Part shown: piece by piece, positions 6,220-63,890 of the stretch
Layout: every line of letters begins with the position of its first letter
Position numbering within the stretch: the stretch's first letter is position 1
Assembly: GCA_014905635.1 (NCBI GenBank)
Contig: JABVCE010000011.1
Span: 496,001-560,000, forward strand
Length of the DNA: 64,000 nt
Origin: Scenedesmus sp. PABB004
Lineage: Eukaryota
Reading direction: 5' to 3'
Made by a program: the position numbers and the translations under genes
Notes under the pieces: generated by a model
What the model saw: only the letters and a program-made list of their open reading frames with translations
Database searches by the model: none
What the model was told of the DNA's origin: nothing

Positions 6220-8819
6220 ATGCTTCGCCACGCGTCAGGGCTGCTGCTCCGGCAGGGCGCAACCGCTGGCGCGGCGCAGCTGCAGCAGCTGCGCTTCCTC
6301 AACGTCCACGAGTACCAGGCGCGCCCCGCGGCCGTGATCTGGGGCCCGGCCGCGCGCCCGCGCCGCGGCGCGGCAGACGCCGACGCCCGCGCGCCGCCGC
6401 CGCCGCTGCCGCCGCGCGCGCGCGCCCGCGGCGCAGGGCTCGGAGCTGATGGCCAAGTTCGGCATCAACGTCCCGCCCGGGCGCCCGGCCTTCACGCTGG
6501 AGGACGTCGCGGCGGCGGCGGAGGCAATGAAGGACGAGAACAACGAGGCGCGCTGCCTGCCTGCGCCGCCGCAGCCGCAGCCGCAGCCGCGGCGGCGCTT
6601 GCTGCGCTGCGGCCGCGCCGGAGGCGTGCGGCGCCGCGCGCGCGCGCGCGCGCGCAAGCAGCCGCCGCGGGGCGGGCGGCGGGGGCTCACAGCGCAGCGG
6701 CGCCGCGCGGTATCCCGACGCGGCGCCGCCGGCGCGGGCGGCGCCGCAGGTGGTGCTCAAGAGCCAGATCTACGCCGGCGGGCGCGGCCTGGGCAAGTTC
6801 ACCAACGGCCTGCAGGCGCGCGCACGCACCGGGCCGCGCCAGCGGCCGCGGGGCCGGCGCGCCGCTCGCCGCCCACCCCGCCGCTCGCCCAGCCGCGCAC
6901 GCCGCCCGCCCGCCGCCCCGCGCGCGCGCAGGGCGGTGTGCACATCGTACCCGTGCCCCAGGCGCTCGAGCTCGCGCGGCGCATGCTCGGCGCGACGCTC
7001 GTGACCAAGCAGACGGGCGCGGGCGGGCGGCCGGTCAACACGCTGCTCGTCGCGCGCAAGATGCGGCTCGCGCGGGAGATGTACTTTGCCATTCTGCTCG
7101 ACCGTAAGACCGCCGGCCCCGTCATGATCGGCTGCAGGCGCGCGCGCTGCGCTCGTGCCGCGCGCGCTGCACGTGCCGCGCGGCCTCCACGCGCGGCGCG
7201 CGCTGTGTGTGTGTTGCGCGCGCCGCGCTGACGCGCGGCACGCGCGCGTCGCGCGCGAATGCGCGCGCGCAGCGAGGGCGGCACGAGCATCGAGGACCTG
7301 GCTGAGAAGTACCCCGAGAAGATCATCAAGATCCCGGTCGACATCCGCACCGGCATCACCGACGAGCAGGCGACCGCGATGGCGCGCGGCCTCGCCGTCA
7401 CCGGCGACCTCGCCGCCGCGGCGGAGCAGATCAAGGCGCTGTACCGCCTCTTTGCCGAGTGCGACTGCACCATGGTCGAGGTGCGCGCGCGTCGGCTCGA
7501 TCCCCAGCTAAGACCGATTGAACTACAATGTGGGGGGCGCCGCCGCCGTCCCGTCACCGCACCATGCCCGCGCTGCCCGTGCGCGGCCCGCCGCGCGGCG
7601 CAGGTCAACCCGCTCGCGGAGGACACCGAGGGCCGGCTCATCGCGGCGGACGCGAAGCTCGGCTTCGACGACAACGCGGGCTACCGCCAGAAGGATATCT
7701 TTGCGCAGCGCGACGAGAGCCAGATCGACCCGCGGTGCGCGCGGGGACCCGCCGCCGCGCCCGCGCCCGCCCCCGCCGCCCGCACCACGCGTGCTGCGGT
7801 CCCCGCGCCGCGGCCAGCACGCGCACGCGCACGCGCACGCGCGCCCACGCACACACACGCACACACAACACACGCGCCCACACGCACACACGCACACACA
7901 ACACACGCGCCCACACGCACACACGCACACACAACACACGCGCGCGCGCAGCGAGGTCGCGGCGGGCAAGTACGACCTCAACTACATCGGCCTCGACGGC
8001 AGCATCGGCTGCATGGTCAACGGCGCGGGCCTGGCCATGGCGACGATGGACATCATCAAGCTCCACGGCGCCGCGCCCGCAAACTTCCTCGACGTCGGCG
8101 GCAACGCGAGCGAGACGCAGGCGCGGACGCGGCGCGCGGTCTCGGCGGCGGGCGAGCGCGCGGGCGCGGCGGCGGCGGGCGCGGCGCGGGGCGGGGCGCC
8201 GAGGCCGCTGCGCCGCCGCCCGCCGCCCGCGCCGCCAGGTGGTCGAGGCGTTCAAGATTCTCACCAGCGACCCCCAGGCGCGGCGCCGCGCGCGCGCCCC
8301 TCGCCCCGCGCCCGCCACCTCCCGCCCGCCCCCGCTCGCCCCCCCCCCCCCCCCCCCCCCCCCGCGCTCCGCGCCCACGCGCGCGCCCCGCGCCCGCCCC
8401 TCGACCCCTGCCCGCACCGCTCAAACCCTAAACCCTAAACCCTGAACCGGTCAGGTCAAGGCGATCCTGGTCAACATCTTTGGCGGCATCATGAAGTGCG
8501 ACGTCATCGCGAGCGGCATCGTCGCCGCGGCAAAGCAGGTCGGCGTCAAGGTCCCGCTGGTGAGGCAGGCCGCGGACGCGCGGCGCGCGGCGCGGCGCGC
8601 GGCGCGGCGCGTGGCGGCGGGCGCGGCTTCGGGCGCTGCGCGCGGCAGCGGGCGCCGAGCGCCGGCGCCGGCCGCGGCGCGCAGGTCGTGCGGCTGGAGG
8701 GGACCAACGTCGAGGAGGGCAAGGCCATCCTGGGATCCAGCGGCATCAACGTGATCACCGCCGACGACCTCGACGACGCGGCGACCAAGGCGGTCGCCGC
8801 GGTCGCGGCGCTCGGGTGA
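6220..8819 (+). CDS. sucC: Succinate-CoA ligase beta subunit, mitochondrial; 10 exons
   Basis: [99 protein letters not shown]. Six of nine introns have GC donors. Confidence 0.97.
8423..8447 (+). repeat. Interstitial telomere-type repeat (AAACCCT)3 in the 3' end of an intron
   Basis: aaaccct aaaccct aaaccct gaac, just upstream of the acceptor at 8454. Confidence 0.85.
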
Positions 8820-8883
8820 ACGGCCTGCTAGCTGCTGCGTCGGCGCCGCGGTGCGGGCTGCGGCCCCGAGCGCGCGGTGTAGG

Positions 8884-8888
8884 TGTAA
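8884..8888 (+). terminator. TGTAA poly(A) signal of the succinyl-CoA ligase gene
   Basis: Chlorophyte UGUAA motif ~65 nt after the stop. An opposite-strand TGTAA lies at 8934-8938. Other plausible signals occur near 20258(+), 21899(-), 31324(-) and 35344(+). Confidence 0.6.
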
Positions 8889-10015
8889 AACTCTGAAAAA
8901 ACTCTCCGCCGCGCGCGAGGGGGGCTCGGCTCGTTACAACACACGCCACGCCGCGCCGCGCGTGGCCTCCCGGCGGGCGCGCCGCCGTCTGTGACGCGTG
9001 GCCCCCTGCCCTGCGCTCTCCGCGCTGGCAGGGGGTGAGGGTTCTCAGGGGGGTGGGTGGCAAGTGCCCGCGCCGCCGGGGGCGCGCGTGCGCGCAGCCT
9101 CAGCCCATGCAGAACCCATCCGATGCAAGGCGCCGCGCCGCGCGCAGCGGCCGCCGCCGCACAGGCACGGGCGGCGCGCGTGGGCGCGGCGTCGCCGCAA
9201 CACGCTTGGCACAGCCGCGCTAGCGACATGCACGCGCGGCACTGTCGTGACCGACTCCCGGCCGCAGTCTCCGCCCCCCACCGCCTCCCTGTCGCAAATC
9301 GTTCCGGCCGCGCCCGGCGGCGCGCCCCGGCCTGCCGCTGCGCCCACAGGGGCGCGCTGCTGCTGCGACTGCTCCCAGCGCGGGCGAGCCCCGCCGCTCT
9401 CGCTGGCGGGCGCGGCAGCAACGCGGCAACGCGCGCGCGCGGGCCCTGCCTGCCCCCGCCGCCGCCATTTTGCCGCTGTGTGCGGTTGCTGCCGCGCCCG
9501 CCGATGCTCTCGCTTGCTGCTGCGGCACCGACTGGTCGGGCACGTGGGCCCGCTGCATCCCCGGCGGCGCGGCCGCGCGCCCCGCCCGGCACTGCGCTGC
9601 GCGCGCGCGCGCAGGTCAAAGAGTGCGCGCGCGGCGGCAGGCGCGCGCGCCCATTCGCGCGGGGCGCGCGGCCTCCGCGCCGCCGCCCGGCGTATGGCAC
9701 GGGCGGCCGGCGCGCGCCCACGCTGCGGCGCCCTGGCGCCACCACCACGGGAACGAAGGGATGGCGCCGCCCGCTGCCCGCTGCTCCCCCGCGTGCACGG
9801 CCTGCTGAGGCCGGCGGCGCCGCTGCAGCGAGCACTCGCTGCTGCATAGCATTCTGTACACGGCCTGTACGCTGTCTGTACACAGCCTGTCTGAAAGCGC
9901 AAGGACTTGGTCCGGCTCCGCTCCTAGCATCCGGCCTCCGCAGCCCGCCGCGCCGCCAGCGCCGCCCCGGGCGGCCAGCGCCCCCGCGGGGCGCGCCGCC
10001 GCCCGCCGCGCCGGC

Positions 10016-11995
10016 TCACGCCCGGATCGGGCTCGGAGGCGGCAGCAGGCTGGGGCTGCTCCCCGCGCTGCCCATGGCGCCGCCGGCGAGCGGCGGCGGG
10101 CTCGGGCTGCCGCGCCCATAGTCCAGCACGCGGGGGCTGAGCAGCGGCATGCTGCTCGCGCGGCTGCTCGCGCCGCTCGGCGCGGGCGAGCCAAACGCGC
10201 CGCCGCCCGGCGCCGCGCCGCCGGCGAGCGCGCCGGGGGCCTTGTTCGAAAACGACAGCCCCCGCGCGACGCGGCGGCTGAGGGCCTTCAGGCTCAGGCG
10301 GAACTTGCCGCCAAAGGTGCCGACCGCGAGCGTCTCGTCGGCCTCCGGCACGTCCGTCAGCCCGCTCACGCTGCGCAGGCTCAGCCGCTCGGCGGCCTTG
10401 GGCCGCGGCGACGCCGCCGCCGCGGCGGCGCCCGCGCTCACGCCGCCGTGCGCGCCCGCTTGCTGGCCGGCGCCGGCACCGGCGGCGGGCTGCTCGCCGC
10501 CCTGCGCAGCGGCTGCTGCAAAGGGGCTCGCGCCGCCGCCGGCGGGGGCGGGGGCGGGGGCGACGCTGCCGCCGCTGCCGCCGCCGCCGCCGCCGCCGAG
10601 CATCGCCAGAATGCTCCGGAACGCGGCGGGGGGCTCGAGCCCCCCGGCGCCGCGCCCCGGGCTGCTGCTGCCGACGGTGAAGCTGCGGCTGCGCCCGGCG
10701 CCGCGCTGCTGCTGCTGCTGCTGCTGCTGCTCCGCCCCGTCCTGAAACCGGCGCCGCCGGTCCGCCGCCGCGGGCGCAGCGGGGGAGCCGGCGGCGGGGT
10801 GGGGGTGGCGCGCCGCCGCCGGCAGGCTGCCGTTGGACGCGGCGCGCCCGAGCGCGCCGCCGCCGGCGCCGGCGCCGTGCGGCGCGCCCGCGAGCGCGGG
10901 CGCCGCGGCGCCCATGTTGCCGGTGGAGTAGCTCTTCTTGATCTTCTGCTGCCGCTCCGCTGCGGCGACGCTCGCGCAGTGCACCGCCGCGTCAAACGCG
11001 CCCATGCCCTCCAGCTTGAGGTGCGTTCCGCTCATCGGCTCCTTGCAGCCAAAGGTGAGGCTGATGTCGACGTCGTCGGGCAGGCGGAACAGCTCCCTGC
11101 GCGATGCGCGGCGCGGGGCGCGGGGCGGGGCGGGTCGGCGCGGGCGCGCGGGCGCGCGGGCGCGGGCACGGGGCGGCGCGAGCGCACACGGGCGCGGGCG
11201 CGCGGCTGCGTGCGGCCGCACGCGGTGCCGACACCGGCACCGGCGCGGGCGGCGCGGTCACCTGATCTTGCCGGTGAACTCGCACAGGCCGTCGGGGCCC
11301 TGCTTCACGGGGATGCGGTGGATCTGCAGCAGCGGCGCAGCGGCGGCGACGCGGGCGGGGGCGCGTGAGCGACGGCCGCCGTGCGCGCCGCGCCGCGCGC
11401 CGCGGCCGCCGCGCGTCGGGCCTGTCGGCCGCGCTCGCGCGGTCGCCCTGCCCGCCGCCTGTCTCATCGCCTCACCTGGCCCTCAAAGTAGACGACCATG
11501 ATCGGCTGGACCTTGGACACCTCGGGCTTGAGCTCCTCGGGCGTGAGGTGGTGCTTCCAGTCGGCGAGCTCGTTGTTGCAGAACCTGGGCGGCGGCGGCG
11601 GCGGCGGCGCGCGCGCGCGGACGCAGCAGCGTGGGCGGCGCGCGCGAGCGCGCGCGCGCGAGCGCCAGGCTGGCCGCGCGGCCGGGGCGCGGCGGCGCCC
11701 GCGGCGCCGGCGGACCTGCAGAACTTCTCCTCGTGCCGGCCGGCCTGCTGCAGCTGCCAGCGCGCGAGGCACTGCGGGTGCACCTTGCGCGGGCACTTGC
11801 ACGGCGCCATGAGGCTGGCGGAGCCGTCCTCGGGGCTCTCCTCCTCCAGGCAGATCCAGCACATGTCGCTCTCGCTGTCGGCCGCCTGCGGAGGGCGGGG
11901 GCGGGCCTCGGCGCGGCGCCCGGGGGCGCGAGGGATGGCGCCGAAGTTGAGCCCCCACCCGTCGCCACGGCGGCCCGCGGCGCCCGGCTCACCAT
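10016..11995 (-). CDS. RING-CH (C4HC3, MARCH-type) zinc finger protein with a PB1/ubiquitin-like middle domain and disordered tail; 5 exons
   Basis: ATG|gtgagc first exon, then CWICLEE...APCKCPRKVHPQCLARWQ...CRFC, then IMVVYFEGQIHRIPV...KIRELFRLP..VDISLTFGC..P.SG..LKLEG..AFDAAVHCA. Four GT-AG introns. Confidence 0.85.
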
Positions 11996-12510
11996 GGCTA
12001 CTCGCTGCGCCGCCTGCCGGCCGCGCTCTGGGGCGCCTTGGAGCCTGCGGGGCGGCCCGGGGCGGGCGGGGTGACTTCACCGCGCGGCACAATCACCTGC
12101 TGCACGCCCGCGGCGGGCCCGCGCGGGGCGCCGGCGCGGCGAGGCGCCTGTGTCACCGAGCTGACACGCCCCGTGGCGCGCGCGGGCGCCAGGGCGGCGC
12201 CAGGAGGCGGCACACCGCGGGCACCCAACTGCCCGCGCTGGCGCGCGCCCCCTGGGCCGCTGCGCCCCGCGCGCCGCCGCGAGGCGTTTGCTAGGCCTAG
12301 CGGGCGCACCCTTGGGTCACGCAGGCGCCGGCCTGCGCGTCGCCAGCGAGGGCGCCCGCGCTGCTGCTCCGCCGGAGCTCAGCGCCGCGACGCCGGCGCT
12401 GGGAGGCACGGGCACGGTCTCACAGTCTCGCGGGCCTCGGCGCGCCGGGCGCGAGCGGCGCGCGCGGGCGCGCAGGCGGGGCTGCTCGCGCGCCTCGCGG
12501 AGAGGGGCGG

Positions 12511-15500: not shown

Positions 15501-16330
15501 CGCGGTCTACTATTACAGGCGAGCGCTGCAGCGAGCGCCCGTGCCCTGTGCCCCGCGGCCGCCCGCCCGCGCGCGCGCCGCGCGCAGCAGCAGCCCGCCT
15601 GCGGCCGCCGCCGGCCCGGCTCACCGCGCGGCCCCGCGCGCCCGTGCCGTGCGCCCTCACGCGCCCCGCGCTGCGCAGGATCGCCAACACGCCGGCGTGG
15701 CAGGTCGTCCGCCTGGCCACCGTGGACTGGGCCAAGCTGCGCGCGGAGCGCAAGGTCGCGTCGGTGCTGATGCTGCCCCGGCCGTGGGCGCTGGACGTGA
15801 GCAACATCTGGGGCGCGAGCCTGGACAGGACCGAAGACATCGACGCCACGTCATACGCGCGCATGCGCACGTGCGTGCGGAGCTGCCTCGCGTCTGCCGG
15901 GGAGGACGGCGCGGCGCTAACGGCGTGCGTGCAGGGGTGCGTGTGAGCCCCCCGTGCTCCGCTGCAAGCTGCCTCGCTGGCTCGCACCTGCGGGCGCTGC
16001 ACAATTCATGCATTTGTGATGGGGCTGGGTTGCTGGCGGGAACACCGGATGTTGCATTGCAGTATGTATTGCAATTTTTCATGACGTGCAATTGCTGCGC
16101 ATGGCAGCCGGCAGCACTGGTAGATTGCAACTCTACCCCCGCGGGGGGTCATCCACCGACAACAGCAGCAGCAACCTCAATGCAATGCTGCTGTCGTCTG
16201 CGCGCCGCCGCAGCAGCGGCGCGCGGCCTGTTGCGCCGCGCCCGCTTGGCCTGAGTTCGCACCGGGAATGGCGGCCGGACTGGGGCGGTCACCGCCAGCG
16301 CTGCCCAGGCCTGCTGGCAGGCGGGGCCGC
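12511..16330 (+). repeat. Tandem duplication unit 1 (~3.9 kb) containing the CBAH/PVA gene with upstream and downstream flanks
   Basis: gcgctgtgtt(c/t)gtgggcggcgtccctggctcaacgtgggc starts at both 12511 and 16431, and homology continues past both stop codons. Confidence 0.9.
13264..15946 (+). CDS. Secreted choloylglycine hydrolase / penicillin V acylase family Ntn-hydrolase, copy 1; 11 exons
   Basis: Signal-like leader, then CSSVSY...SARTMDF (N-terminal Cys, Arg, Asp), DGLNDAGLAVS, YILGSFSSVAE, SLVIEF, VGVLTNNP, PPGSHNSSDRFTR and IYTTLRDHTNAVYYYR. Confidence 0.9.
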
Positions 16331-19400: not shown

Positions 19401-20200
19401 GCCGGCGGCGTGGGGCCGGCTGAGGCAGACTGGACCATCTATACCACGCTGCGCGACCACACCAACGCGGTCTACTATTACAGGCGAGCGCAGCAGCGAG
19501 CGCCCGTGCCCCCTGTGCCCCGTGGCCGCCCGCCCGCGCGCGCGCCGCGCGCAGCAGCAGCCCGCCTGCGGCTGCCGCCGGCCCGGCTCACCGCGCGCCC
19601 CGCGCCCCGCGCGGCGCAGGGTCGCCAACACGCCGGCGTGGCAGGTCATCCGCCTGGCCGACGTGGACTGGGCCAAGCTGCGCGCGGAGCGCAAGGTCGC
19701 GTCGGTGCTGATGCTGCCGCGGCCGTGGGCGCTCGATGTCACCAACATCTGGGCGGCCAGCCTTGACCGAACTGACAACATCGACGCCGCCTCGTACGGC
19801 CGCGTGCGCACGTGCGTGCGGAGCTGCCTCGCGTCTGTCGGGGAGGACGGCGCGGCGCTCACGGCGTGCGTGCAGGGCTGCGTGTGAGCCCCCGTGCTCG
19901 CCAGCTTGTGCAAGCTGCTTCCCTGGCTCGCACCTGCGGGTGCTGCCAAGCCCAGGTATTTGACGTCCCCATGGAGCCGGGTCAAGAGGAACACCCGGAC
20001 ATTGCTGCGCATGGCAGCCGACGGCACTGGCCGATGTTGCGGTGATCCACCGCAACGTCAATGCTGAGTTGTCTGCGCGCCGCCGCAGTGGCGGCGTGCG
20101 GCCCCTTGCGCCGCCCGAGCTTGGCCTGTGTTCGCACAGGGCGCTGCTGCGGCGGAACTGCGGCGGCCACTGCCCGCTGGGCCTGCTGGCAGGCGGGGCG
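16431..20200 (+). repeat. Tandem duplication unit 2
   Basis: Near-identical to 12511-16330 in the middle and more diverged at the ends. Confidence 0.9.
17183..19887 (+). CDS. Secreted choloylglycine hydrolase / penicillin V acylase family Ntn-hydrolase, copy 2; 12 exons
   Basis: Same motifs as copy 1 (CSSVSY...SARNMDF) plus an extra intron at 17681-17762. Confidence 0.9.
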
Positions 20201-24379: not shown

Positions 24380-26737
24380 ATGGCGGCAGCAGCAGCACGG
24401 CCCGAGGTGCGCCGCGGCCCCGCCCCGCTCAGCCAGGCGGCGCCCGCGCGCCATGGCACCCCGGCGCGCCGCACCGGCGGCCGCGGCGGGCCCGCGGCGC
24501 GACGGCGCGGGCGCCGCCGCCGCCGCCGCGCGCAGGCGCCCGCCGCCGACTCGCCGGCGTCGGGCTTCTACTGCAGCACCAGCGGCACCTACTTTGCGGA
24601 CAAGGAGAGCCTGGCTGAGCACTACAAGTCCGACTTTCACCGCTACAACCTCAAGCGCAAGGCGCGGCGGCAGCGCGGCGCGGCCGGCGGCGGCGGTGGC
24701 AGCGCGGCGCGGCCATGCATGCAGCCGCCGCCGTGCATGCGGCCAACCCCGCCGCCGCCGACGAACCGCGGCCAGGTCGCGGGGCTGCCGCCGGTGACCA
24801 AGGACTGGTTTGAGGCGCGCAAGGCGCAGCTCTCGAGCGCCGCGGCGGCGCCGGCGGCGGGCGCGGTCTGGCTCGACCCGCTGACAAAGCGCAAGTTCCA
24901 GAGCCATCAGACCTACCAGGTGCGGTGGCGTGCGCGCATGCCCGTCGCAACCGTGGCGCCCGCGCTGCAGGCCCCCGCCCGCGGCGAGGCGCCGCAGGGC
25001 GCGTGGACGTCAGCAGCGCGCCGACGCGCAGCGGCCGCCGCCGCCGCCGCCGCCGCGCCCCCCGCACCCAGGCGCACGTGCGGTCGAAGAAATATGCAGA
25101 GCTGGTGCGCGCCAGCGGCGCGCCCGCGCCGCCGCCGGTGGTCATGCTGAAGCAGCAGGCGGAGCAGCCGGCCGGCGCCGAGGGTGAGGGCGCGCTGGCG
25201 CGCCGCGCGGCAGCCCCGCGCCGCGCAGGCGCCCCGCGGCGCGCCGCAGCCGCCCGCTGCGCGCCGCCCGCCGACCGCCGACCGCCGGCCGCGCCGCGGG
25301 CCGCCGCGCAGGCGCGCCGGCCGGCGGCAGCAGCAGCAGCAAGCCGGCCGGCTTCACAGTCACGCCGCCGCACCGCTCGGCGGCGGCGGGCAGCGGCAGC
25401 GACGCGTCTGACGACGACGACGGCTCCGGCTCGGGCTGGGAGACCGCCTCCGACGACGACGACGACGGGGCGCCGAGCGGCGGCGCCGCCGCCGCGGTGC
25501 GCAGCCGGGCCGCGGCGGCGGCCGCGCGGCGGTGCGCCGCCGCGGCCGACGGCGGCGCCGCGTCGTCCGACGGCGCCGGCGACGACGACGAGGCCGCGTG
25601 GGAGGAGTGGGACGTGTGCGTGAGCCTGTTTGACAACCGGCGCAGCGCCAGCCTGCAGGCAAACCTGGAGTACATGTGGCGCGCGTACGGCTTTGTGCTG
25701 CCCGACTCGGAGGCCCTCGCCGACCCGGAGGGCCTCATCAAGTACCTCGGAGCAAAGCTGCAGTACGGCCGGGTGTGCGCCGCCGCGCCGCCGCGCCGCC
25801 GCCACGCCGCCGCGCCGCCGCGCGCGCCCGCCCGCTCCCACGCGGCTGCGGCCGCCCGCCGCCAAGCCTCGCGCTCGCGCTCACGCTCACCCACGCCGCT
25901 CCCTCGCTCCCTCGCTCCCTCGCTCCCTCGCTCCCTTCGCTCCCTCGCTCCCTCGGCCCCCCTCGCTCCCTCGCTCGCTCCCTCGGCCCCCCCTCGCCAG
26001 GTCCCGCTGTACACGCCCGGCGACGACGCGTCGGCGCGGCAGTTCCGCTCGCTGCACGCGGTGCAGCGGCACATGGTCGACACCAACCAGTGCAAGCTCG
26101 CGTGGGAGGGCAACGAGGAGGAGTACGAGGACTTTTATGACTACTCACGCGTCGAGGGTGCGACAGCCGCAGTGTGTGCACTGGGATCAGCGCGCGCGCG
26201 CGCGCGCGTTTGCGGGGGCGCGGCGCCAGGCGGGCCCGGCGGCCGCGGGCTGGGCGCCGGGGGGCCCGCGCGCCCCGCGCCCACGCGCCCACACGCGCGC
26301 GCGCACGCCCCGCGCCGCCGCGCGCAGACGCGGACGGCGGCGCCGAGGGGGGCGAGGGCCTCGCGCTCGCGCTCGGCGGGCTGTCGCTCGGCGGCGGCGG
26401 CGGCGGCGGCGCGGGCGGCGGCGGCTGGGAGCTGTCGGTCGGCGGCGGCGGCGGCGCCGGCGGCGGCGGCGGCGCCAAGGCGCTGGGCTCGCGCGAGCTC
26501 GCACGCTACTACCGGCAGCGCCCGCGGCCGCAGGACGCGCGGCAGAGCGTGGCCGCCAACGCGGTCGTCGCGCAGTACCGCGCGCTCGGCGTGGCGACGG
26601 CCGGCGGCGCCGCGGCGCGGCCGCCGGAGGGCGTCAAGCGCGCGCAGCGCGCGCTCGACCGCCAGCGGCGCTCGTGGCTCAACCTGGCGATGCGCACCAA
26701 CGTCAACAACAACCTGCCCAACAACGTGCCGTACTGA
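24380..26737 (+). CDS. REI1: Cytoplasmic 60S subunit biogenesis factor REI1/ZNF622-like; 7 exons
   Basis: HYKSDFHRYNLKRKVAGLPPVT, NLEYMWRAYGFVLPD...DPEGLIKYL, FRSLHAVQRHMVDTNQCKL, LGSRELARYYRQRP, NLPNNVPY*. One GC donor at 24662. Confidence 0.95.
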
Positions 26738-29514: not shown

Positions 29515-31107
29515 GCCGCCGCCGCCGCCGCCGGACCTCACGCGCGCGCCGCCACGCTCCGCCGCCGCCGCGGCAGGCGCGCATGCCGAGCCGCATGCAG
29601 GGCTACAAGCACTTTGTGTCTGAGGGAGGCATCCGCAACTTCCTGGCCGTCGCGGGGCCGGGCATCGAGGCGGGGCGCATCGACAGCACGCTGCTGAGCA
29701 TGGCCGACATCCTGCCCACGGTTGCCGACCTCGCGGGCGTGCCGCCCGAGGCCACGGCGCCGCTGCGCCTCGACGGCGCGAGCTTCCACAACCTCCTGCT
29801 CACGGGGCGCCGCGGCGTGCCCAAGTACGCGCAGCGCGGGCAGTTTCGCGCGACCGAGGCGCAGCGGAAGCGCATGGTCTTCAGCCTCGGGCCGTACTGC
29901 TGGGACGCGGATGCTGTGCCGGAGCTCGGCCCCGACAGGCGCGCGCGCGCGCGCGCGCGCGGGCGGCGCACGCCGGCCGCGCTGCCGCCGCGCGTGCCGC
30001 GCGCGCCGCGGGCGTGCCGGCGGGCCGCCGACCCGCCCCCGCCGCCGCGCCGCGCCGCGCGCGCGGCCCAGCAGGCAGGTGATCAAGCCCCAGCCGCTGC
30101 TGGACTATGACACCGGCGGCATGCGCATGACCGTCGATGGCCCCCGCCTCGGCCTGGGCTGGGAGCGCTGCATCGCTGTGCGCCACATGCGCTACAAGTG
30201 GGTCGGCGAGACGCAGAAGCTCTACAGGTTTGAGAACCACTCGCACGTGGAGGGCCCCTGCAGCGAGGTCCCCGCGGCCGAGGCGGCGCCGATCATCGCC
30301 ACGCTCCGCGCCGCGGCGCGCGCGTGGTGGGACTCGGTCGTGGCCGAGCCGCAGAGCTTCGTCAAGCCGACCTTTTTCCTCGGCCTCCCCTACGGCGCCG
30401 TCACCAACGTGCTCGCCGCGGGCGCGCACGAGCGCACGCCGGGGCGGGTGCGGCTCGTCGCCAACGGCGCCACGGGGTTCCGCGACCCCGGGGACCGCGT
30501 GTGCTTCCGGCTGCAGGTCGCGGCGCCGGGGACGTACGACTGGAGCGTGTTTTACACGAGCGCGCTCGGCGCAACGATGCGGCTGTCCGTGGGGCCGTTT
30601 GCAGACGTCACCGCCGGCACGGCGCCGTCCGTCACGGCGGACCTGCCGGCCAACGTGCGCCGCGGCCGCCCGCTGCTGCGCACGCGGCCCGCCAATGGCG
30701 GCGCTCCCCCTGCCCCTGGCCCCGCAGCTGCACCGACCTCCCGGCTGCCCCGGGATCGCCGCCCTGCTCGCCGCCCGCAGTTTGACCACATGGTGGGGCG
30801 CTCGCTGGGCCGCCTGGTGCTGCCGGCGTCGGGGGACGCCGCCGACGAGGCCTGCCTGGAGCTGGTGGACTCCAGGTCGTCGGGCAAGGCTGTGTTCAAG
30901 CTGCTCGGAGCGCTGCGCGTCACGCTGGTGCCGGACGGCACCGCTGCCGCCGCGGCGCCTGCGGTCGTCGGCCGCGACGCGGCGGCCTGGGACGAGCTGC
31001 GCCAGCGCTTTGCGATGCCCGCCGGGCAGGGCGTGATGCAGAGCCTTTACTCGCCGTACGCCACGGAGGACCTGGGTGACTGCGCCGTCTGCAAGCCAGA
31101 CGTCTGA
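27299..31107 (+). CDS. Secreted arylsulfatase (formylglycine-dependent S1 family) with a C-terminal CBM-like beta-sandwich; ~10 exons
   Basis: Signal peptide; PNFIVVLTDDQGWDDIG, TPHLDAL, CAQTRASLLTGRHP, GYATAHFGKWH, QPFFVFYAPHTIH, NTYIFLSSDNG, GYKHFVSEGGIR, ADILPTVADLAG..LDGASF; C-terminal GFRDPGDRVCFRLQVAAPGTYDWSVFY. Confidence 0.92.
28289..28384 (+). repeat. Coding minisatellite, 4 x 24 bp (QSPEPLPE) inside the sulfatase
   Basis: cagtcgcc(t/g)gagccgctgccggag units at 28289, 28313, 28337 and 28361. Confidence 0.9.
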
Positions 31108-33661: not shown

Positions 33662-34937
33662 ATGGAGCAGCCCCCCGCCCACCAGCCCCGGCCGAGCCTG
33701 GTGCTGGCGACGCACACCGTGGACGCAGCCACCGCCAAGGTGAGCACAGCAGCAGGCGCAGGCAGGAAGAGAAATGGTGCCTTCGCGCGGCGCTTGAACG
33801 CTGCGCGCCGCCGCTGCTCGCGCGCGGCGCCGCGCCGCGCCGCAGGTACCGTTCGCGCTCATCCTGCTGCTGGACTTTGCCAAGCGCAAGGCCACGCCGC
33901 CGGGCTGCCGGTGCCGCATGGTCATCCCCAGCGACGGCCTGACCTCGGTGTCGCTCTGGGACACGCTCGACGCGCCGGCGCTCGCGCGCTGGCTCAACGA
34001 AAACCTCGGCGCCGACTGCCGCACCGAGCTGGCCGAGGCGCGCCGCGCGCGCTGCGCCACACCGCGCCCGCGCCGCGCCCGCCGCCGCGCCCGCCGCCGC
34101 GCCCGCCGCCGCCCGCCCGAGCGCACGCGCGCAGGCGCGCGCCCCGCCGCGCCGAGCCCGCCGCCCGCGGCTCCTGCTCGCGCAGGTGCAGGAGGACTTC
34201 ACGTATGGCCTTGCCCTGGAGCTGGCGCGCGTGCGCGCGACGGAGAAGGTCGCGGGCGCGCTGGGCGAGCGCACGAGCCGCGCCGCAGAGGCGGTCAACG
34301 CGGCGGTGGGCTCGACGCAGCAGCGGGTGCGCCGCGGCCGGCCGCCGCACCGCGGCGGCGGCGCTGCCATGCGGCGGAGCGCGCGGGCGCGGGCGCGCGC
34401 TCACGGCCGCGCCCGCGCGGCGCCGCCGCGCGCAGCTGGAGGCGTGGGACCAGCGCACGGGCGTGCTGACGGGCGCCATCGAGACGGGCGCGGCGCTGCA
34501 GCAGCGCGTCGTCGGGGCAATGCAGAACGAGCGCGTGCAGAGCGTCGTCGCCAACGTCGGCGCGGGCGTCTCTACCGGCTGGTGCGCTCTCATGCGTGCC
34601 GCGCCGCGCCGCCGCGCTGCGCCGCGCCGCGCCGCGCCGACCGCCGCGCGCGCCCTGCCGCTGGCGGCCGCCGCGCCCACCGCACGCCGACCGCGCGCGC
34701 CTGCCGCGCAGGGCGAAGGTCAGCAGCTGGGTGGGGTCACGCATCCAGGAGATGCACCTTCCTGACGACGCTGACTACAACTACAACCAGGCGAGGCACC
34801 CGGGGGGAGGCAGCCTGCGCTCGCCCGCGCGCGCGCGGCGGCCGGCGCCGACGCCGCGCGCCACACCTCCGCCCGCAGGGCTACGCGCCGCCGGCGCCGC
34901 AGCAGTCATACGGCGGGCAGCAGCCGCTGCCGCCGCC

Positions 34938-38779: not shown

Positions 38780-40960
38780 TCAGCAGCCCTCGAGCTTTGG
38801 CGGCACGCCCTGCGCGTAGGCAAAGACGTTCTTGGGGTCGTACTTTGCCTTGACGCCAGACAGGCGGCACAGGTTGCCCTGGTAGTACTTGTCCAGGGCC
38901 TCGCGGGGCAGGTAGTACTCGGTCGGGCAGTTCTGGTACGCGCCGCCGCTCAGCAGCCCGCGCCACCTGCGCGCCCCGGGTACGTGGCAACGCCGGCGGC
39001 GGCGGACGAAGGCCCGCGGTCAGCGGTCAGCCGCCGGCGGCGGCGCGCGGCGGGCGCCTGCCCCGCCAGCAGCGGGCCGGGGCGGGGCGGGGGGGGGGGC
39101 CTGCGGCCGCGCCGGCCGGGCCAGCGCGCGCGCCGCGCGCCTTGTGTAGAGGCCGCCAACCCAGGCCTGCGCGGCGTCGCGCGCGCCGGGGGCGCGGCCG
39201 TCAAACATAAAGTTGACCACCATGTCAAAGCCAGGGCCCCGGTGGGCGAAGGCCGTGCCGTTGGCGGGCACGTCGCTGATTGCGCCTGGGGACGCCAGCG
39301 CGGGTGGGGGGCGGGTTGCTCGAGCGCGGCGCGCGCCACGCGCCGCGTGCTCAAAACCACAGCTCCCTAAACCCCGACCCCTGAGCCCTGGGCCCTGGGC
39401 CCTGGACCGCCCCGGACGTTGCACACGCGCACCCTCCATCGTCTCAAACTCTATGTACGTGATGGCCGGCCCCGTGTAATTCTTCGGGTACGCGGGGCTG
39501 CTGGTGAAGCCGTTGATCAGCGACTCAAACTCGGCCAGCGACAGCGGCCGCGCCACGTACTCGCAGCGCTTGGCCGTCTGCAGCGGCGCGCCCCCCGCGG
39601 CCGCGTCGACGCGGAGGTCGATGCCCGCCGCCAGGTCGGGCATGGTGGTCCAGGGCCGGCGCTCAAACGCGTGCGCCGCGGGCTTGAGCGCGAGCAGCGG
39701 CGCCGCCGCGGCCCGCAGCGCCGCCTCCGCGTCCGCGATCGGCACGCCCTCGGGGGCGTACGTCGCGTAGATCACGAGCGTCTGCTCGCCCGTGCGCGCG
39801 TCGGCGAAGACGTGGGGCCACGTGGACATGCCGCGGGGGTCCTTGTCAAGGTACTTGTCCTGCCACGTCAGCAGCACGCGCGCGGCGCGGCGCGGGTCGG
39901 CCGCGATGCTCCACGACGCGTTGAACGTCGCCGCAAAGGCGAGCGGGAAGACCTTGTACGTGATGCGCGTGACGACGCCGTAGTTGCCGTGCCCGCCGCC
40001 GAGCAGCGCCCAGAACAGGTCGTCGTGGCGGCCCCCGCGGCCCGCGTCGACGGCGGAGCCGTCGGCCAGCACCACGCGGTAGCCGAGCACGTTGTCCACG
40101 CCGAGCCCGCGCCCCGCGGACAGGGCGCCCCACCCTCCTCCCAGGCTGAATCCGGCGATGCCGACGTTGGGGCAGGTGCCCGTCACGGCGGCCATGCCCT
40201 TGGCGGAGAGCGCGGCAAAAACGTCCCGGAAGCGCGCGCCCGCCTGGATGACAGCCTCGCGGCGCTCAGGCGACACGGTGATCTGCGTGCGCGTGTGCGT
40301 GTGAGTGGGTGTGTGAGTGGAGGGTGTATGGGGTGTGTGTGGGTGTGTGGGTGTGTGTGGGTGGTGTGTGTGTGTGGGAGGGTATGGGAGAGGGTGGGTG
40401 GGTGCGGAAAGGGCGCCGCGCCGTCGGCCGGCGCGGCGCGACGCGGGCAGTGATGAGCGCGCCTGTGTCATGGGCGACACGTCGATCACCACGCCGGCGC
40501 ACGACGAGTAGCCGCCCGAGTCGTGCCCGCCCGCGCGCGCGCAGAGCGGGAGGCCGCGCGCGCGCGCAAAGTTGACGGCGGCCTGCACGTCGCCCTCCGA
40601 CTCGGCGCGCACGATGAGCGCCGGCGGCGGCCGCGCAGCGTTGTAATAGGTGTTGATGGGCTCCACGTACTTGCGCGCCGCGTCAAACGCCGCCTCGCCG
40701 GGCAGCAGGACGGCGCCGCGCACGGCCTTTTTGAGCCGCTTCACGTCGGCGTCACCGGCGTGGAGCGGGGCGGCGCTGGCGCCCGGCGCCGCGCCAGGCC
40801 CGGCGGCGGCACCGGGCCGGCCGCTGCTGCTGCTGGCCGCCGCCGCCGCCTTGCGATCGCCGTCCGTGCCGGCCTTCGCCGGCCCGGCGGCCTGGCACAG
40901 AGCTCCGTGCGCCAGTGCCAGGAGGATCGCGGCCGCAATGGCCCGAGGGCCGCGTGCCAT
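38780..40960 (-). CDS. Secreted berberine bridge enzyme-like (BBE/AA7-type) FAD oxidase with bicovalent-FAD motifs; 4 exons
   Basis: Signal peptide; PALIVRAESEGDVQAAVNFA, RAGGHDSGGYS (His), GTCPNVGIAGFSLGGGWG (Cys), DLFWALLGGGHGNYGVVT; C-terminal YQN...YYQGNLCRLSGVKAKYDPKNVF. Introns GC-AG, GT-AG, GC-AG. Confidence 0.93.
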
Positions 40961-44083: not shown

Positions 44084-44370
<287 letters not shown>

Positions 44371-48265: not shown

Positions 48266-48703
<438 letters not shown>

Positions 48704-52595: not shown

Positions 52596-52915
<320 letters not shown>

Positions 52916-59250: not shown

Positions 59251-62200
59251 ATGAGCCTGCCGCGGCCCATCGCGGGCGGCGCGCAGCGCCAGTGGCAGCA
59301 GGAGGATGACAACGACGAGCGCGTTGCCATCTCCATACCGGGCAGCCAGCACGACCGGGGCGGCATCGCGTTCGGCACGCCCAGCTCCTCCAGATCCGGC
59401 TGGGCCGCCGCGCGCCTGGCGGTGCGCTGCACTGCTGGCACTGGTCCGCCGCTCTGCCCCGCCGCCGCGCCGCTCGCCGCCGCGCCGCGCCGCGCCGCGC
59501 GCCCGCAGCCGACGCGCCGCGCCCGCCGCAGGCGGCCGAGGAGCACGGCAGCCTGGCGCGCAGCTTCAACCCGGGCAGCTTCGTGGCGGGGCACTCGGTC
59601 TTCTCCCGCGCGGCGGCCGGCGGCGGCGGCGGCGGCGCGCGCGGCCACGGGCGCAGCTCGCTCGACGGCCCCCCGCGCTGAGCCGGCAGCCCTCGGGCGG
59701 CGGCATCTACCTGGGGCTGGAGCCGGGGCTGTCCAGCCCGCTGCTGGAGCACGGCCTGGCGGGGCCGCGCGGCGCGGCGGCGGCGCCCGTCCCCGCGTCC
59801 CCGCCGCCGCGCGCCGCCGAGGCGCCCGGCGTCGTCGCGTTTGCCTCGCCCGAGCCCGGCGCGCCGGCGCTGCCGCCCGGCGCCGGCAGCCCGGCGCCGG
59901 CGCCCGGCGCGGCGGCCGCGGCCGCGCCGGCCGCGGCCGCGCCGGGCGAGGGCGCGGGCGGCAAGCGGCGCGGCGGGTCGCTGCGCAACGACGTGATCTA
60001 CGGCATCATCAACGCCGTCGTGGGCATACCCACCATGATCAGCTTCGCCGCCATCGTGTACCAGGCGCGCCGCGCGGCGCAGCGCCGCAGCGCGGTGGCA
60101 GGCGCCCCGCCGACGTCGCCGCCGCGCCGGCGCCCTTGCCCGCACCGCCCGCCGCCACCACGCCGCCGCCCTCCCGCCGTCTCACGAGCGCGCCGCCACG
60201 CCCCTCGCCTCCCCCCGTCCCCTTCCTTCCTCTCTCTCTTCTTTGCCCCCCATCATGAACGCACACAGGACCCCATCTACAAGCCCCTGCTGGGGCAGCT
60301 CGCGCGCATCGCCTTTTTCAGCGCCGCGGTGCACCAGGCCGTCTTCACCGCGTGCAGCACGCTGCCGTTTGCGGTGGGGCAGCCCCAGGACGTGGGCCTC
60401 ATCTTCCTCAGCGCCATGGCCACAGGCGTCGCAGACATCGGGCGAGACCAGGCGCGCTCGCGCCGCCGGCGGCGGCGGCGCCGGGGCGGCGGCGGCGGCG
60501 GCGGGACCACGGCGGGGAGCGCGGCGGGGACCGCAGCGGCGGGCGGCGCGGCGCGGCGGCCGCGGGCCGTGGGGCGCGGGCGCCGACGCGGCCGGCCGGC
60601 GCCCCTCCGCCTCCGCCGCCCTCCCCCGCCCCGTGGCAGGGGCTGAGTGACAAGGTCATCGTCGGCACCGCGCTGCTCACGCTCACAGTCGCCACGGTCG
60701 TCGTCGGCCTGCTCACGGTCGCCGTCGGTGCGCCGCGCCCCGCCCCGCTGGCGCCCCGCCCGCGCCCCGCGGCGGCGGCGGCGGCCTTGGCGGTGCTGCC
60801 GCAGGCGCGGCGGCGGCCCTGCCGCCCCTCGCGCGCCCCGACCCGCCGCCCGCCGCTCCCTCCGCCCGTCCCTCTACCCCTCCCCCAGCCAAGTTCAGGC
60901 TCGCCACGCTCGTGCAGTACGTCCCCCTGCCCGTGGTGCGCGCGGCGCCCTGGCACCGCCGCCGCTTCCATCGCGCCGTGCCGCGCCGCGCAGCGGGCTC
61001 TGCGTGCCTCGAGACCCCTCTGACCTCTGACCCCACTCTTTAAACCCTCCATAGGTCGGAGGCTACCTGGGGTATGTTGGCTACTTCTGCCTGGTGGGTG
61101 GCGGCGGGGGGCGTGGGTCTGTGCGTGTGTGGGTGCAGGGGGCGTGGACGCGGGCGCAGCGAGGCTCGCGCGCCTCGGCGGCGAGCCTGGTGCGCCCCGC
61201 GCCGCGCCCCGCGCCGCGCGCAGGCCGCCGGCATCGGCCTGGGCTCCAACGTGCAGATCGGGTCGTTCACCAGCTGGGGGCAGCTGCTCGACCACGGTGC
61301 GCTGCGCGCGCCCGCCGCCGGCCCGCTGCCGCACCCGCTCGGCCGTTGCCCGCGCGCCCACCCCCCTTCTCCCCACCCCCGCGCTCACACGCGCACCCAC
61401 CCACACGCACCCACACAATGCAGACGCGCTCATCAAGTTTGTGCCCACGTTTGCCGCGGCGCTGGTGCTGTGGGCGTGCATGACGCGCGCGCGCTCGCCC
61501 TGGGCGCTGCCCATCACGCTCGCGGCCGTGCCGGCGGCGTTCCACGCCTACCTGCTGGTCAGCGGGACGAGCCTCGCGGACGCGCAGGACGCGGGCTGGG
61601 TGCTCAAGCCCCAGGTGTGCGACGCGGCGCGCGGCGCGCGCTGGCCCACGGGTCCTGAACACTCTCTGTCAGGGAGAGCCGGGGGCCCCGCCGCATAGCG
61701 CACGTCCGCCTCCCTCCCCCCAGCACACTGCCCGACGCTCGCCGCTGCCGCCGCGGGGCGCGCCGCGCCGCCGCAGGGCAAGGCGACGGAGCAGTTCTGG
61801 GAGCTGTACGAGCTCTGTGAGCCGCGCGCCCGCGCCGCACCGCACCGCGCCGCACCGCACCCCGCCCGTTCCGCCCTCTCACGCCCTCTCATGCCCCCCC
61901 CCCCCCCCCCCTGCACACTCACACGCGCACACGCGCACGTGCGCACACACGCACAGTCAACATCAGGGACCTCGAGTTTGACGGCGTCAGCCTCGGCGCG
62001 CTCGCCCGCCAGGCGCCCAAGATGCTGGGCCTCTTCTTCGTGGTCGTCTTTGGCTCCTGCCTCGACGTCGCCGCGATCCAGGCGCGGGCAGCGGCGCGGG
62101 CAACGCTGCGCGCGCGCGCGCGGGCCGCGCCGCGCGCCCTTCACCTGTCACATCGCTCACCAATCAAAACTTGCCAATCAATCACTCACTCAACCAATCA

Positions 62201-63679
62201 ACCACTCAATCACTCACTCACTCACTCAATCAACCAAATGCACACGCCAGGCCGACATGCCGTTCCCGATCGACTTCAACTCCGAGCTCGGCACCGTGGG
62301 CCTCTCCAACGTCCTCGTCGGCCTCAGCGGCGCCGGCTACACCGGCAGGCGAGCGGGGGGCGGGGGAGCGCGGCGCTGGCTCTCTCGACACGCCCCTTTT
62401 CAAACCTCTCGCTAAAACTCCCCTTTCACACCCCCCTTCCACCCCCCCCCCCCCCTCAAACCGTTCCCACAGCTACATCTTCTCCCAGACCATCTTCTCC
62501 ATGCGCGCCGGCGTGTCGGGCGTGGCGCACGGCGCGATCATCGCGGGCCTCGAGGCGGCCATCTTCCTGCTGCCCTTCTCGGGTGCGTGCGCGCGGGGCG
62601 CTCAAGGGTTGAGCAGGGTTTTGTTGACTGGGCGCCCCTGGCTTGCGTCAGCGCCTCGGCTCCACAAACCACGCGCGCACACAGTCTCACGCGCCCCGCT
62701 CGCCCGTCCCTCCCTGCCACATGACCACTGACGCAGTGGTGCAGTACCTGCCCAACTTCTTCTTCGGCGCGCTGCTGACCGTGTTTGGCATCGAGATCGC
62801 GGGAGACTGGCTCATCCGCTCATACGCCAAGGCGCGGCGCGCTCTCGCTCTCTCTCCCTCTCCCTCTCTCTCTCTCTCTGTGTCTCTCTCTCTCTCTCCC
62901 TATCTCTCTCCCTCTCTTCTCTCTTGCCCGCTAGCGCCCACGCGCGCGCTCACACCACCTGCACCGCCCTCGCACCCCCCCACACACACGCACACACACG
63001 CACACGCGCACACCCAGGTGACGCGGGAGGAGTACCTGCTGCTGCTGGCCACCTTCCTGGCCATCATGCAGCTCGAGCTCGAGCGCGGCGTCGCGGCGGG
63101 CATGCTGCTCTGCGCGACATACTTTTGCGTGACATACGCACGGGTGCGCCTGCGTGGGTGTGCATGCGCGCGTGCGTGCGTGCACGTGTGCGTGCGTGCG
63201 TGCGTGCGTGCCTGCGTGCGTGCGCGTGTGCGTGCATGCGTGTGTGCGTGCCTGCGTGCGCGTGTGCGCGCGCACGCGCGTGTGTATCGAGGCGGGCCCG
63301 TTCCCGGGCTGGCCGGGGGCGCAACAACGCCCGACCCCGCCGCCGCTGCCACGCGCGCTGCCCGCCCGCCCGCAGGCCAACATGGCCGCGTTCGCCGTGC
63401 TGCCCACGCGCTCTGCGGCGGTGCGCGCACGCGCCCGCAGCCCGCACACTCTCACCGCCGGCGCCTCGTCCCTCCCAACCCCTAAACCCTAAACCATCTG
63501 TCGTCCCTCCCTCCCTCCCTCCCTCCCTCCCTAAACCGCCCCTCCCTAAACCGCCGCCTGCCTGCCAGGTGCGGTCGTACCACGAGAGCCACGTGCTCGA
63601 GGTCGTCGCCAACCGCCTCGCCACGGTCGCGCTGAGCGGGTTCATGTTCTTCGGCTCGAGCGTGCTCATGAGCAGCAAG
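59251..63679 (+). CDS. SulP/SLC26-family transporter (non-canonical type, STAS domain beginning); at least 16 exons, continues beyond the window
   Basis: VIYGIINAVVGIPTMISFAAIV, VHQAVFT..STLPFAVGQPQDVGLIFLSAMA, LVQYVPLPVVGGYLGYVG, FGSCLDVAAIQ, DFNSELGTVGLSN, GYTGSYIFSQTIF, YLPNFFFGALL, LSGFMFFGSS. Five GC donors; apparent +1 C in the run at 59669-59674. Confidence 0.9.
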
Positions 63680-63890
63680 GTGGGCGCGGCGGCGCACAGC
63701 GTGGCGCTTGCCTCGCTTCGCGCAGTCAAACTGATTGTGTTTGTTTGACCGCGTGGTTGACCGCGTGCTCATGAGCAGCAAGGCGAGCGCAGCGCCGCGA
63801 CAGCGGCGGCGCGCGGTGGCACACTCGCGCAGTCAAACTGATCATGTTCAAATTGTTTGACCGCGTGTTTGACCGCGTGTTTGACTGAGT
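63661..63890 (+). repeat. Tandem duplication of an exon end plus splice donor, with (TTTGACCGCGTG)n-like repeats
   Basis: cgtgctcatgagcagcaag at 63661 and 63764, each followed by cgcgcagtcaaactgat...tttgaccgcgtg. Confidence 0.85.

What the first reader, a model, noticed from the sequence alone, without database searches (positions are those of the whole stretch)
6220..63782. Very frequent GC-AG introns with a strict AG|GCG(C/A)G rule
Seen: manual splicing requires GC donors at 6319, 6548, 6816, 7138, 8121, 8278 (6 of 9 succinyl-CoA ligase introns), 15519, 19484, 24662, 29939, 34038, 34791, 39140(-), 40462(-), 60065, 60452, 62082, 62349 and 62832. That is 19 of roughly 115 introns by hand count, against about 1% in typical eukaryotes. 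Every GC donor follows an exonic AG; donors lacking exonic AG are always GT. The usual intron start is G(T/C)GCG rather than GTRAG. Inference: exon-side U1 pairing compensates for +2C, or variant U1/U6 snRNAs exist. Elevated GC-AG use may already be known in related GC-rich algae, which would lower novelty.
Basis: partly seen in the sequence, partly recalled or inferred. Interest (0 to 1): 0.7.

Follow-up and report, generated by a model that had tools for sequence, protein, structure and literature searches.

The report
Frequent GC-starting introns in green alga
About one intron in six in this very GC-rich green alga starts with GC instead of GT, nearly always right after an exon ending in AG; this is real by protein homology but not yet shown with RNA, and similarly high rates are already known from two other GC-rich algae.

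Summary
Prp8 gives 11 GC among 30 stable introns. An unsupervised gene model over 864 kb gives 16-20% GC donors. The AG rule is strong, not strict: 17 of 17 unselected homology-fixed GC donors follow AG, but two sought-out exceptions (CGG|GC, ACG|GC) are supported. No variant snRNA was found: U1, U5 and U6 pairing regions are standard. METTL16 and SNRNP27 are present. The introns are not repeats, and three GC sites in Prp8 are GT in other eukaryotes. Best reading: ordinary major-spliceosome introns whose +2 T drifted to C under extreme GC pressure (introns 86% GC), tolerated where exon-end AG and +5G supply pairing. No RNA of this organism was listed, so splicing itself is unshown. High GC-donor use is published for Emiliania (56-65%) and Micromonas (26%); my 10 paper searches showed no such report for Sphaeropleales. 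The scan's earlier notes that I saw concern Ostreococcus GT donors only.

The parts
6220..8820 (+). Succinyl-CoA ligase beta subunit gene, 10 exons, 9 introns (6 GC-AG, 3 GT-AG at 7481-7603, 7735-7951, 8560-8684)
   Evidence: Homologues 87-88% identical over one exon; donor-blind spliced alignment without indels
6319..6436 (+). GC-AG intron, CAG|GCGCGC, phase 0
6548..6749 (+). GC-AG intron, GAG|GCGCGC, phase 0
6816..6931 (+). GC-AG intron, CAG|GCGCGC, phase 0
7138..7272 (+). GC-AG intron, CAG|GCGCGC, phase 2
8121..8238 (+). GC-AG intron, CAG|GCGCGG, phase 0
8278..8454 (+). GC-AG intron, CAG|GCGCGG, phase 0 (the gene model prefers an AG 6 bases later; homology picks 8454)
15519..15678 (+). GC-AG intron, CAG|GCGAGC, in first copy of a CBAH-family hydrolase gene
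   Evidence: gene model posterior 0.94; family from another exon; no Pfam match at this junction
19484..19619 (+). GC-AG intron, CAG|GCGAGC, same site in the second gene copy
   Evidence: posterior 0.99; no in-frame GT; no Pfam match
24662..24775 (+). Probable GC-AG intron, AAG|GCGCGG, phase 0
   Evidence: no in-frame GT inside the intron; missed by the gene model; no Pfam match; likeness of the joined reading to REI1/ZNF622 proteins is recalled, not tested
29939..30074 (+). GC-AG intron, CAG|GCGCGC, in a sulfatase-domain gene
   Evidence: posterior 0.99; Sulfatase hit on an upstream exon
34038..34185 (+). GC-AG intron, GAG|GCGCGC
   Evidence: posterior 0.96
34791..34878 (+). GC-AG intron, CAG|GCGAGG
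   Evidence: posterior 1.0
38967..39140 (-). GC-AG intron, AAG|GCGCGC, in an FAD-binding/BBE gene
   Evidence: posterior 1.0; BBE domain on the downstream exon only
40283..40462 (-). GC-AG intron, CAG|GCGCGC, inside the FAD_binding_4 domain
   Evidence: posterior 1.0; Pfam profile runs 6-54 before and 58-108 after the junction, one residue short of exact continuity; in-frame GTs lie 18-30 bases upstream inside the matched stretch
60065..60268 (+). GC-AG intron, CAG|GCGCGC
   Evidence: posterior 1.0; no Pfam match
60452..60639 (+). GC-AG intron, CAG|GCGCGC
   Evidence: posterior 1.0; no Pfam match
62082..62250 (+). GC-AG intron, CAG|GCGCGG
   Evidence: posterior 1.0; no Pfam match
62349..62472 (+). 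GC-AG intron, CAG|GCGAGC
   Evidence: posterior 1.0; no in-frame GT
62832..63017 (+). GC-AG intron, AAG|GCGCGG; acceptor 63017 read by eye, the gene model chose 63029
   Evidence: donor posterior 1.0; one in-frame GT 48 bases into the intron

Best explanation
These are ordinary major-spliceosome (U2-type) introns. The genome is about 78% GC and its introns about 86% GC, so T-to-C change presses on every donor +2 position. A +2C costs one pair with U1 snRNA and weakens the active-site geometry, so it survives mainly where the exon ends in AG (best CAG), which pairs with U1 and with U5 loop 1, and where +5G still pairs with U1 and the U6 ACAGA box. About a third of AG-preceded donors have flipped to GC; donors without AG rarely can. 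The spliceosomal RNAs did not need to change. Shown: the junctions (by homology), the rate (by model, benchmarked), the compensating pattern, standard snRNA pairing regions, GT/GC switching at shared intron positions. Inferred: that the introns are spliced at these sites in the cell, that GC pressure is the cause, and which snRNA does the compensating.
For: Junctions. Rate 16-20%, AG|GC donors in 33 of 34 stretches; model recovered 30 of 30 Prp8 and 9 of 9 ligase donors. Compensation, AG|GC against AG|GT: +5G 200 of 201 vs 364 of 388; +4 G or T 3 of 201 vs 83 of 388; +3A 22 of 201 vs 2 of 388; -3G 16 of 201 vs 82 of 388; and GT donors without AG carry +4A in 187 of 651 vs 29 of 388. U1 pairing energy of AG|GC equals that of non-AG GT donors. 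Pressure: GCG outnumbers GTG 7.6 to 1 inside introns, while at +2 the C:T ratio is 201:388 after AG and at most 49:651 elsewhere, so C is still about 15-fold and at least 100-fold under-represented (my arithmetic). Switching: 3 of 11 Prp8 GC sites are GT at the same position in other eukaryotes, and one GT site is GC in L098. Standard U1, U5, U6. Literature: compensation at GC donors (PMC1557818, PMC3167603), -1G and +5G with U5 and U6 (PMC11732430 section 15), GC content named as probable cause in Emiliania (PMC4028052), GT-to-GC conversion in mammals (PMC2490688 abstract).
Against: No RNA evidence from this organism. Within the genome the GC-donor share does not track local GC (Spearman 0.01 over 34 stretches of 76-81% GC), and introns with AG|GC are no richer in GC than those with AG|GT (0.861 vs 0.859, p=0.49). 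The cross-species trend rests on few introns: GC donors 1 of 52 (intron GC under 45%), 2 of 36, 0 of 6 and 2 of 7 (70% or more). Emiliania reaches 56-65% GC donors at only 65% genome GC, so GC content alone does not set the rate. The donors are weak on the intron side (GCGCG), which may need protein help that I did not examine in detail. The motif statistics come from a model that learns these motifs, so some sharpening is built in.
Confidence: 0.7

Rival explanations
1. The spliceosome's proteins (U1-C, Luc7, U1-70K, Prp8 or others) have changed so that +2C is checked less strictly; GC pressure only fills the space this opens.
For: The common GC donor CAG|GCGCG pairs weakly with U1 (median -4.5 kcal/mol). 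The U1 stem-loop 1 loop reads GCUCACGUAG against the Rfam consensus GAUCAaGAAG. Prp8 differs at 4 near-invariant columns. The rate differs widely among GC-rich algae.
Against: Four changes in 1151 near-invariant Prp8 columns is within the 2-30 seen in six compared relatives. METTL16 keeps NPPF and SNRNP27 keeps its RQYMNR..GGFNRPL end. Luc7 and U1-C genes are present, but their sequences were not compared. +2C is still strongly selected against.
Confidence: 0.17
2. GC introns are copies of an intron-making transposon (introner) that takes its AG from the insertion site, as in Micromonas pusilla where the same AG|GYGCGT donor marks IE-A elements.
For: Same donor motif in Micromonas introners, 53% GC in IE-A1. 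22 of 32 Prp8 intron positions are not shared with the intron-rich relative L138. An old, decayed family would escape a similarity search.
Against: 7 of 201 AG|GC introns resemble another intron, against 68 of 1039 GT introns; junction duplications of 5 bases or more are 56 of 201 against 152 of 388; lengths overlap (median 136 vs 125); 3 of 11 Prp8 GC sites lie at positions held by GT introns elsewhere. Only about 2% of the genome was compared.
Confidence: 0.05
3. A variant U1 or U6 snRNA pairs with GC donors.
For: The genome search scores only its best candidates (41 of 245 for U1), so a very divergent gene could be missed; the assembly may be incomplete. 3 of the 23 pattern hits got no locus (2 are the known U1 genes, 1 was not examined).
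Against: Rfam and DNA searches both give the same 2 U1 genes with the standard 5' end; 20 of 20 scanned pattern loci lack a U1 match or Sm site; one full U6 with the standard box. A dedicated U1 would not predict the AG and +3A compensation.
Confidence: 0.04
4. The GC donors are base-calling or assembly errors (T read as C), or the true donors are nearby GTs.
For: The assembly has some indel-like differences between repeats (a 2-base difference near 41555 against 45728). No reads of this organism were checked.
Against: GT-only models cost 212 score units and 53 gap codons in the ligase gene and 523 units in Prp8. All 45 of 45 conserved valines in Prp8 keep a GT codon, 4 of them in-exon AG|GTG. 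Errors would not co-vary with -3, +3, +4 and +5. A public protein (P0392) joins exactly at a GC donor.
Confidence: 0.04

Closest known systems
Emiliania huxleyi GC-AG introns (PMC4028052; passages read)
   Same: GC-rich alga with GC donors as a mass feature (56% of 241 curated junctions, 61-65% in RNA-based sets; 9 checked by RT-PCR); authors name genome GC content as the probable cause; acceptors stay AG.
   Different: Haptophyte; rate three to four times higher at lower genome GC (65%); has some GA donors (4%), which my model did not retain here. The passages I saw give no exon-side rule or snRNA check.
Micromonas pusilla CCMP1545 GC donors (PMC4815162, PMC3879977; passages read)
   Same: Green alga, 25.6% GC donors, near-identical donor motif AG|GYGCGT; canonical introns favour AG|GTGCGT.
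   Different: 79% of its GC donors are in one introner family; regular introns have 9.7%. Here 16-20% is reached in non-repetitive introns, in a different class (Chlorophyceae).
U2-type GC-AG introns of animals and plants (PMC1557818, PMC3167603, PMC11732430, PMC6310983; passages, one section)
   Same: Mismatch at +2 offset by stronger match elsewhere; consensus G at -1 and +5; switching between GT and GC at the same intron.
   Different: 0.4-1.2% of introns there; about 15-20 times commoner here, and the intron side is usually GCGCG, a poor match to U1 at +4 and +6.

Membership tests
U2-type GC-AG introns | Intron begins GC and ends AG | tested here: met
   Donor-blind homology alignments in 4 genes; acceptor AG was assumed, and a fully free alignment found the same introns shifted by a few bases
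U2-type GC-AG introns | G at -1 and +5, stronger than GT donors elsewhere | tested here: met
   -1G in 23 of 23 homology-fixed GC donors; +5G 200 of 201
U2-type GC-AG introns | Major-spliceosome snRNAs present with standard pairing regions | tested here: met
   U1, U4, U5, U6 found; U2 not searched
U2-type GC-AG introns | Branch-point motif | tested here: inconclusive
   CTCAC/CTGAC-like word in 383 of 1289 introns at -60 to -8, no control run
U2-type GC-AG introns | Excision at these ends shown in RNA | not testable with these tools
   No RNA holder listed; the one run laid holds only other organisms' copies
U12-type (minor) introns | Donor GCATCC/GTATCC-like | tested here: not met
   GC donor words are GCGCG, GCACG, GCGAG; motif from PMC1557818
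U12-type (minor) introns | U11 snRNA in the genome | tested here: inconclusive
   No match, but nothing rang in the controls either
Introner elements | Many similar copies across genes | tested here: not met
   7 of 201 AG|GC introns have a similar intron among 1289, no more than GT introns; about 2% of the genome sampled
Introner elements | Target-site duplication or terminal repeats | tested here: inconclusive
   No excess of junction duplication (56 of 201 vs 152 of 388); terminal inverted repeats not tested
Introner elements | Positions absent from relatives | tested here: inconclusive
   3 of 11 Prp8 GC positions are shared with other eukaryotes; the other 8 had no match among the 80 loci, most of them intron-poor or distant
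Genomes with donor shifts tied to loss of METTL16 or SNRNP27K | Loss of METTL16 or SNRNP27K | tested here: not met
   Both genes found over the Pfam cut-off with key motifs; U6 methylation itself not testable

The most novel reading that the evidence does not exclude
This lineage's spliceosome has adapted at the protein level (U1 snRNP proteins, Luc7 or Prp8) so that very weak AG|GCGCG donors, with about four U1 pairs, are used constitutively in core housekeeping genes without introners or changed snRNA pairing regions. It would be a natural experiment on why +2U is nearly invariant, testable against a model relative.
Probability: 0.17. Interest if true: 0.68.

Novelty: new member of a known kind. 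Interest (0 to 1): 0.4.

Why it matters
It adds a third algal lineage, apparently without introners, to the short list of genomes where GC donors are common. Thousands of natural GC donors beside a standard set of snRNAs give a large sample for weighing exon-side against intron-side contacts at the 5' splice site. In practice, GT-only gene finders would break about one intron in six here, and two thirds in the ligase gene.

Tried and rejected
RNA evidence: no RNA holder listed; the single small-share run laid on 5500-25000 gave only other organisms' sequence and no junction of this genome. Decoy donor classes in the gene model: CG (152) was a 3-base shift of GTG|CG, GG (84), CC (52) and GA (11) had no AG link at convergence; a passing AG|GA class of about 30 vanished with a higher-order model. 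One Prp8 intron near 9576 was unstable under homology and was left out of the 30; the model placed it at a GT. Non-AG GC calls: 0 of 64 tested (64 of 76 candidates had usable flanks) had the same Pfam family on both sides, against 14 of 64 random AG|GC calls drawn from 187 (p=6e-5), so most look like noise, yet the two I picked and tested by homology both held, so the true share is open. In the relatives' Prp8 loci, introns with under 7 of 10 identical flanking residues were dropped before counting (101 distinct introns in 21 of 80 loci kept). The Prp8 tree was the quick version and gave no names; it only shows L138 among the nearer branches. The first U1 energy run used a window shifted by two bases and was redone. 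U11 search uninformative. Paper searches showed no report for Sphaeropleales; subscription papers and supplements were not seen, and the per-species tables of PMC6310983 and PMC7072748, or a genome paper, may hold such a figure.
Full report
Setting. The window is G000:C4:496001-560000 of a 40-Mb, 80-contig genome. It is 75.8% GC; 33 other stretches are 77-81% GC. The ligase exon's best named homologues are from Monoraphidium and Raphidocelis (87-88%), and the serine acetyltransferase exon's from Tetradesmus (93%). A public protein, P0392, labelled by its source as from the genus Scenedesmus, aligns to a G000 gene over 524 residues without gaps. The organism is thus a chlorophycean green alga of the Sphaeropleales.

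Observation in the window. All 19 of 19 cited positions read AG|GC. I wrote a protein-to-genome aligner whose donor rule can be set. GT-only scored 212 units lower with 53 gap codons, and three decoy donor sets scored 66-117 lower. This does not rest on any assumed donor motif.

A second, unselected gene. The Prp8 gene gave 31 introns with a donor-blind profile. Thirty were stable across queries: 11 GC, all after AG, and 19 GT, 13 after AG. With the ligase, 17 of 17 GC donors follow AG against 14 of 22 GT donors (p=0.006).

Genome-wide rate. I trained a two-strand gene model by expectation-maximisation on 864 kb (window plus 800 kb from 19 contigs, about 2% of the genome), starting every donor class flat. 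With six classes, GT (1111) and GC (289) converged on G-[C/A]-G at +3 to +5, and GC alone converged on exonic AG (77%, against 37% for GT). Decoy classes were shift artefacts or stayed unstructured. With a motif-free noise class the expected counts were GT 1152, GC 284 (226 after AG) and noise 252; distinct calls above 0.5 were 1161 GT, 230 AG|GC and 41 other GC. That is 16.5% counting AG|GC only and 19% counting all GC. AG|GC donors occur in 33 of 34 stretches. In a random 64 of 187 AG|GC calls, 14 had the same Pfam family on both sides. Of the 13 non-repeat cases, 9 continued the profile exactly and 4 were off by 1-4 residues (my count).

How strict is the rule. Non-AG GC calls had the same family on both sides in 0 of 64, so many are noise. 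But the two I chose to test held. In a serine acetyltransferase gene, five introns in the conserved part are GC and one GT; the last GC donor is CGG|GCGCGC, fixed by the conserved VTG-NPA stretch in all 5 donor-blind runs. In a dual-specificity phosphatase gene the donor is ACG|GCACGC in all 5 runs, and P0392 joins exactly there. Both keep -1G and +5G. The title's motif also misses GCACG and GCAAG starts: +3A is 22 of 201. A fair rule is: G at -1 and +5 almost always, AG at -2/-1 in at least 80% and probably over 90%.

The machinery. Two identical U1 genes carry the standard 5' end; U6 has the standard ACAGAGA box and U5 the standard loop 1. A DNA search with the U1 body found only those two. 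A pattern for altered U1 5' ends had 23 hits; the 20 with loci have no U1 match and no Sm site and read as donor-like words on the other strand. METTL16, SNRNP27, Luc7 and U1-C genes are present. Prp8 differs at 4 of 1151 near-invariant columns, within the 2-30 of six relatives.

The compensation pattern. Among 1289 distinct high-confidence introns (388 AG|GT, 651 other GT, 201 AG|GC, 49 other GC), AG|GC donors give up the freedoms that AG|GT donors have: +4 G or T 3 of 201 against 83 of 388, +5G 200 of 201 against 364 of 388, -3G 16 of 201 against 82 of 388, and +3A 22 of 201 against 2 of 388. GT donors without AG gain +4A (187 of 651 against 29 of 388). GC share is 39% after CAG, 35% after AAG and 16% after GAG. 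Computed pairing with U1 bases 1-11 puts AG|GC (median -4.5 kcal/mol) level with non-AG GT (-4.7); AG|GT donors read with +2C give -4.5 and non-AG GT donors -2.7. This matches published accounts: stronger flanks at GC donors (PMC1557818, PMC3167603; passages) and -1G plus +5G explained by U5 loop 1 and the U6 box acting together (PMC11732430, section 15 and passages). The data cannot separate U1 from U5.

Origin. The introns are not a repeat family: 7 of 201 have a look-alike against 68 of 1039 GT introns, with no excess junction duplication. Among 80 metagenomic Prp8 loci, three G000 GC positions carry GT introns elsewhere, and one G000 GT position is AG|GC in L098. The intron-rich locus L138 (87% identical, introns 50% GC) has 1 GC in 37 introns and shares 10 positions. 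All 5 reliable GC donors in relatives follow AG. By intron GC the counts are 1 of 52, 2 of 36, 0 of 6 and 2 of 7: the right direction, but thin. Inside G000 introns GCG outnumbers GTG 7.6 to 1, so an unconstrained +2 would be mostly C; the observed 0.52 after AG shows continued selection for T. Against this reading, local GC does not predict GC-donor share within the genome, though the range is narrow, and Emiliania has a higher share at lower GC. Base-calling error is unlikely: 45 of 45 conserved Prp8 valines keep GT codons.

Prior knowledge. Emiliania huxleyi has 56-65% GC donors, some checked by RT-PCR, with genome GC named as probable cause (PMC4028052, passages). Micromonas pusilla CCMP1545 has 25.6%, 79% of them in one introner family, 9.7% in regular introns, with the donor AG|GYGCGT (PMC4815162, PMC3879977; passages). 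Pelagomonas introners have GT and GC donors (10.1101/2021.10.25.465678, passages), and introner families range from 0 to 50% GC donors (PMC9860276, passages). Plants average 1.2% (PMC6310983, passages); splice-site GC correlates with genome GC, r about 0.4 in plants (PMC7072748, passages). GT-to-GC conversion outnumbers the reverse in mammals (PMC2490688, abstract). PMC10639083 had no mention of these algae (find only). Ten searches showed no report for Sphaeropleales; supplements and subscription papers were not seen. Since the public model P0392 already uses a GC donor, the annotation may contain the pattern unremarked. The scan's own notes that I saw (8 of 11) concern GT donors of Ostreococcus; there were none for this genome.

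Verdict. Real at the level of DNA and homology, genome-wide, about one intron in six; rule strong but not absolute; no variant snRNA found; most likely GC pressure filtered by known 5' splice-site compensation. It is a new lineage for a known phenomenon, lacking RNA proof. Interest 0.4.

Noticed in passing
L002:1501-1659 and L001 (G000:C46): The two U1 genes are identical, on opposite strands 5.5 kb apart; the stem-loop 1 loop reads GCUCACGUAG against the Rfam consensus GAUCAaGAAG. That this loop binds U1-70K is recalled.
   Followed up: no
L175-L178 (G000:C4:565800-567125): The only LUC7 match lies about 6 kb beyond the window's end; probably chance.
   Followed up: no
L179, L180: Two equal-scoring U1-C zinc-finger matches, near the end of C1 and the start of C61: a duplicate gene or an assembly overlap.
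   Followed up: no
L005:568-1609; L004: U4 lies within 1 kb of U5 on the same strand; a 3' fragment of U6 lies 3 kb from the full U6 gene.
   Followed up: no
L013-L015 (Prp8, G000:C19): Four changes at near-invariant columns (own numbering L956W, A1437S, A1812G, E2313D); not more than in relatives; A1437S is shared with L098.
   Followed up: partly
window 41200-53700: About three tandem copies, period about 4.3 kb, of an amidohydrolase-family gene with a fragment of the FAD-binding/BBE gene and long TG and CGTG runs; the first copy lacks 2 bases near 41555 relative to the others.
   Followed up: no
window 12500-20100: Tandem duplicate of a CBAH-family hydrolase gene; both copies keep the GC donor, and the second has one extra intron near 17682-17762.
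   Followed up: partly
window 8424-8447, 63477-63550; L027 near 5600-5620: Short AAACCCT / TTTAGGG runs inside introns; likeness to the plant-type telomere repeat is recalled.
   Followed up: no
window 2549-4410, 35700-37830, 56500-58070: Three related genes with leucine-rich repeats by eye, two with apparent frame breaks; not annotated by any tool.
   Followed up: no
864 kb sample: Acceptors lack a U-rich tract: T is 4-8% at -25 to -6, the end is mostly CGCAG or GGCAG-like with -3C at 96%.
   Followed up: partly
L141: An unrelated metagenomic Prp8 locus with 79% GC introns has 2 AG|GC donors among 5 reliable introns: possibly another high-GC-donor lineage.
   Followed up: partly
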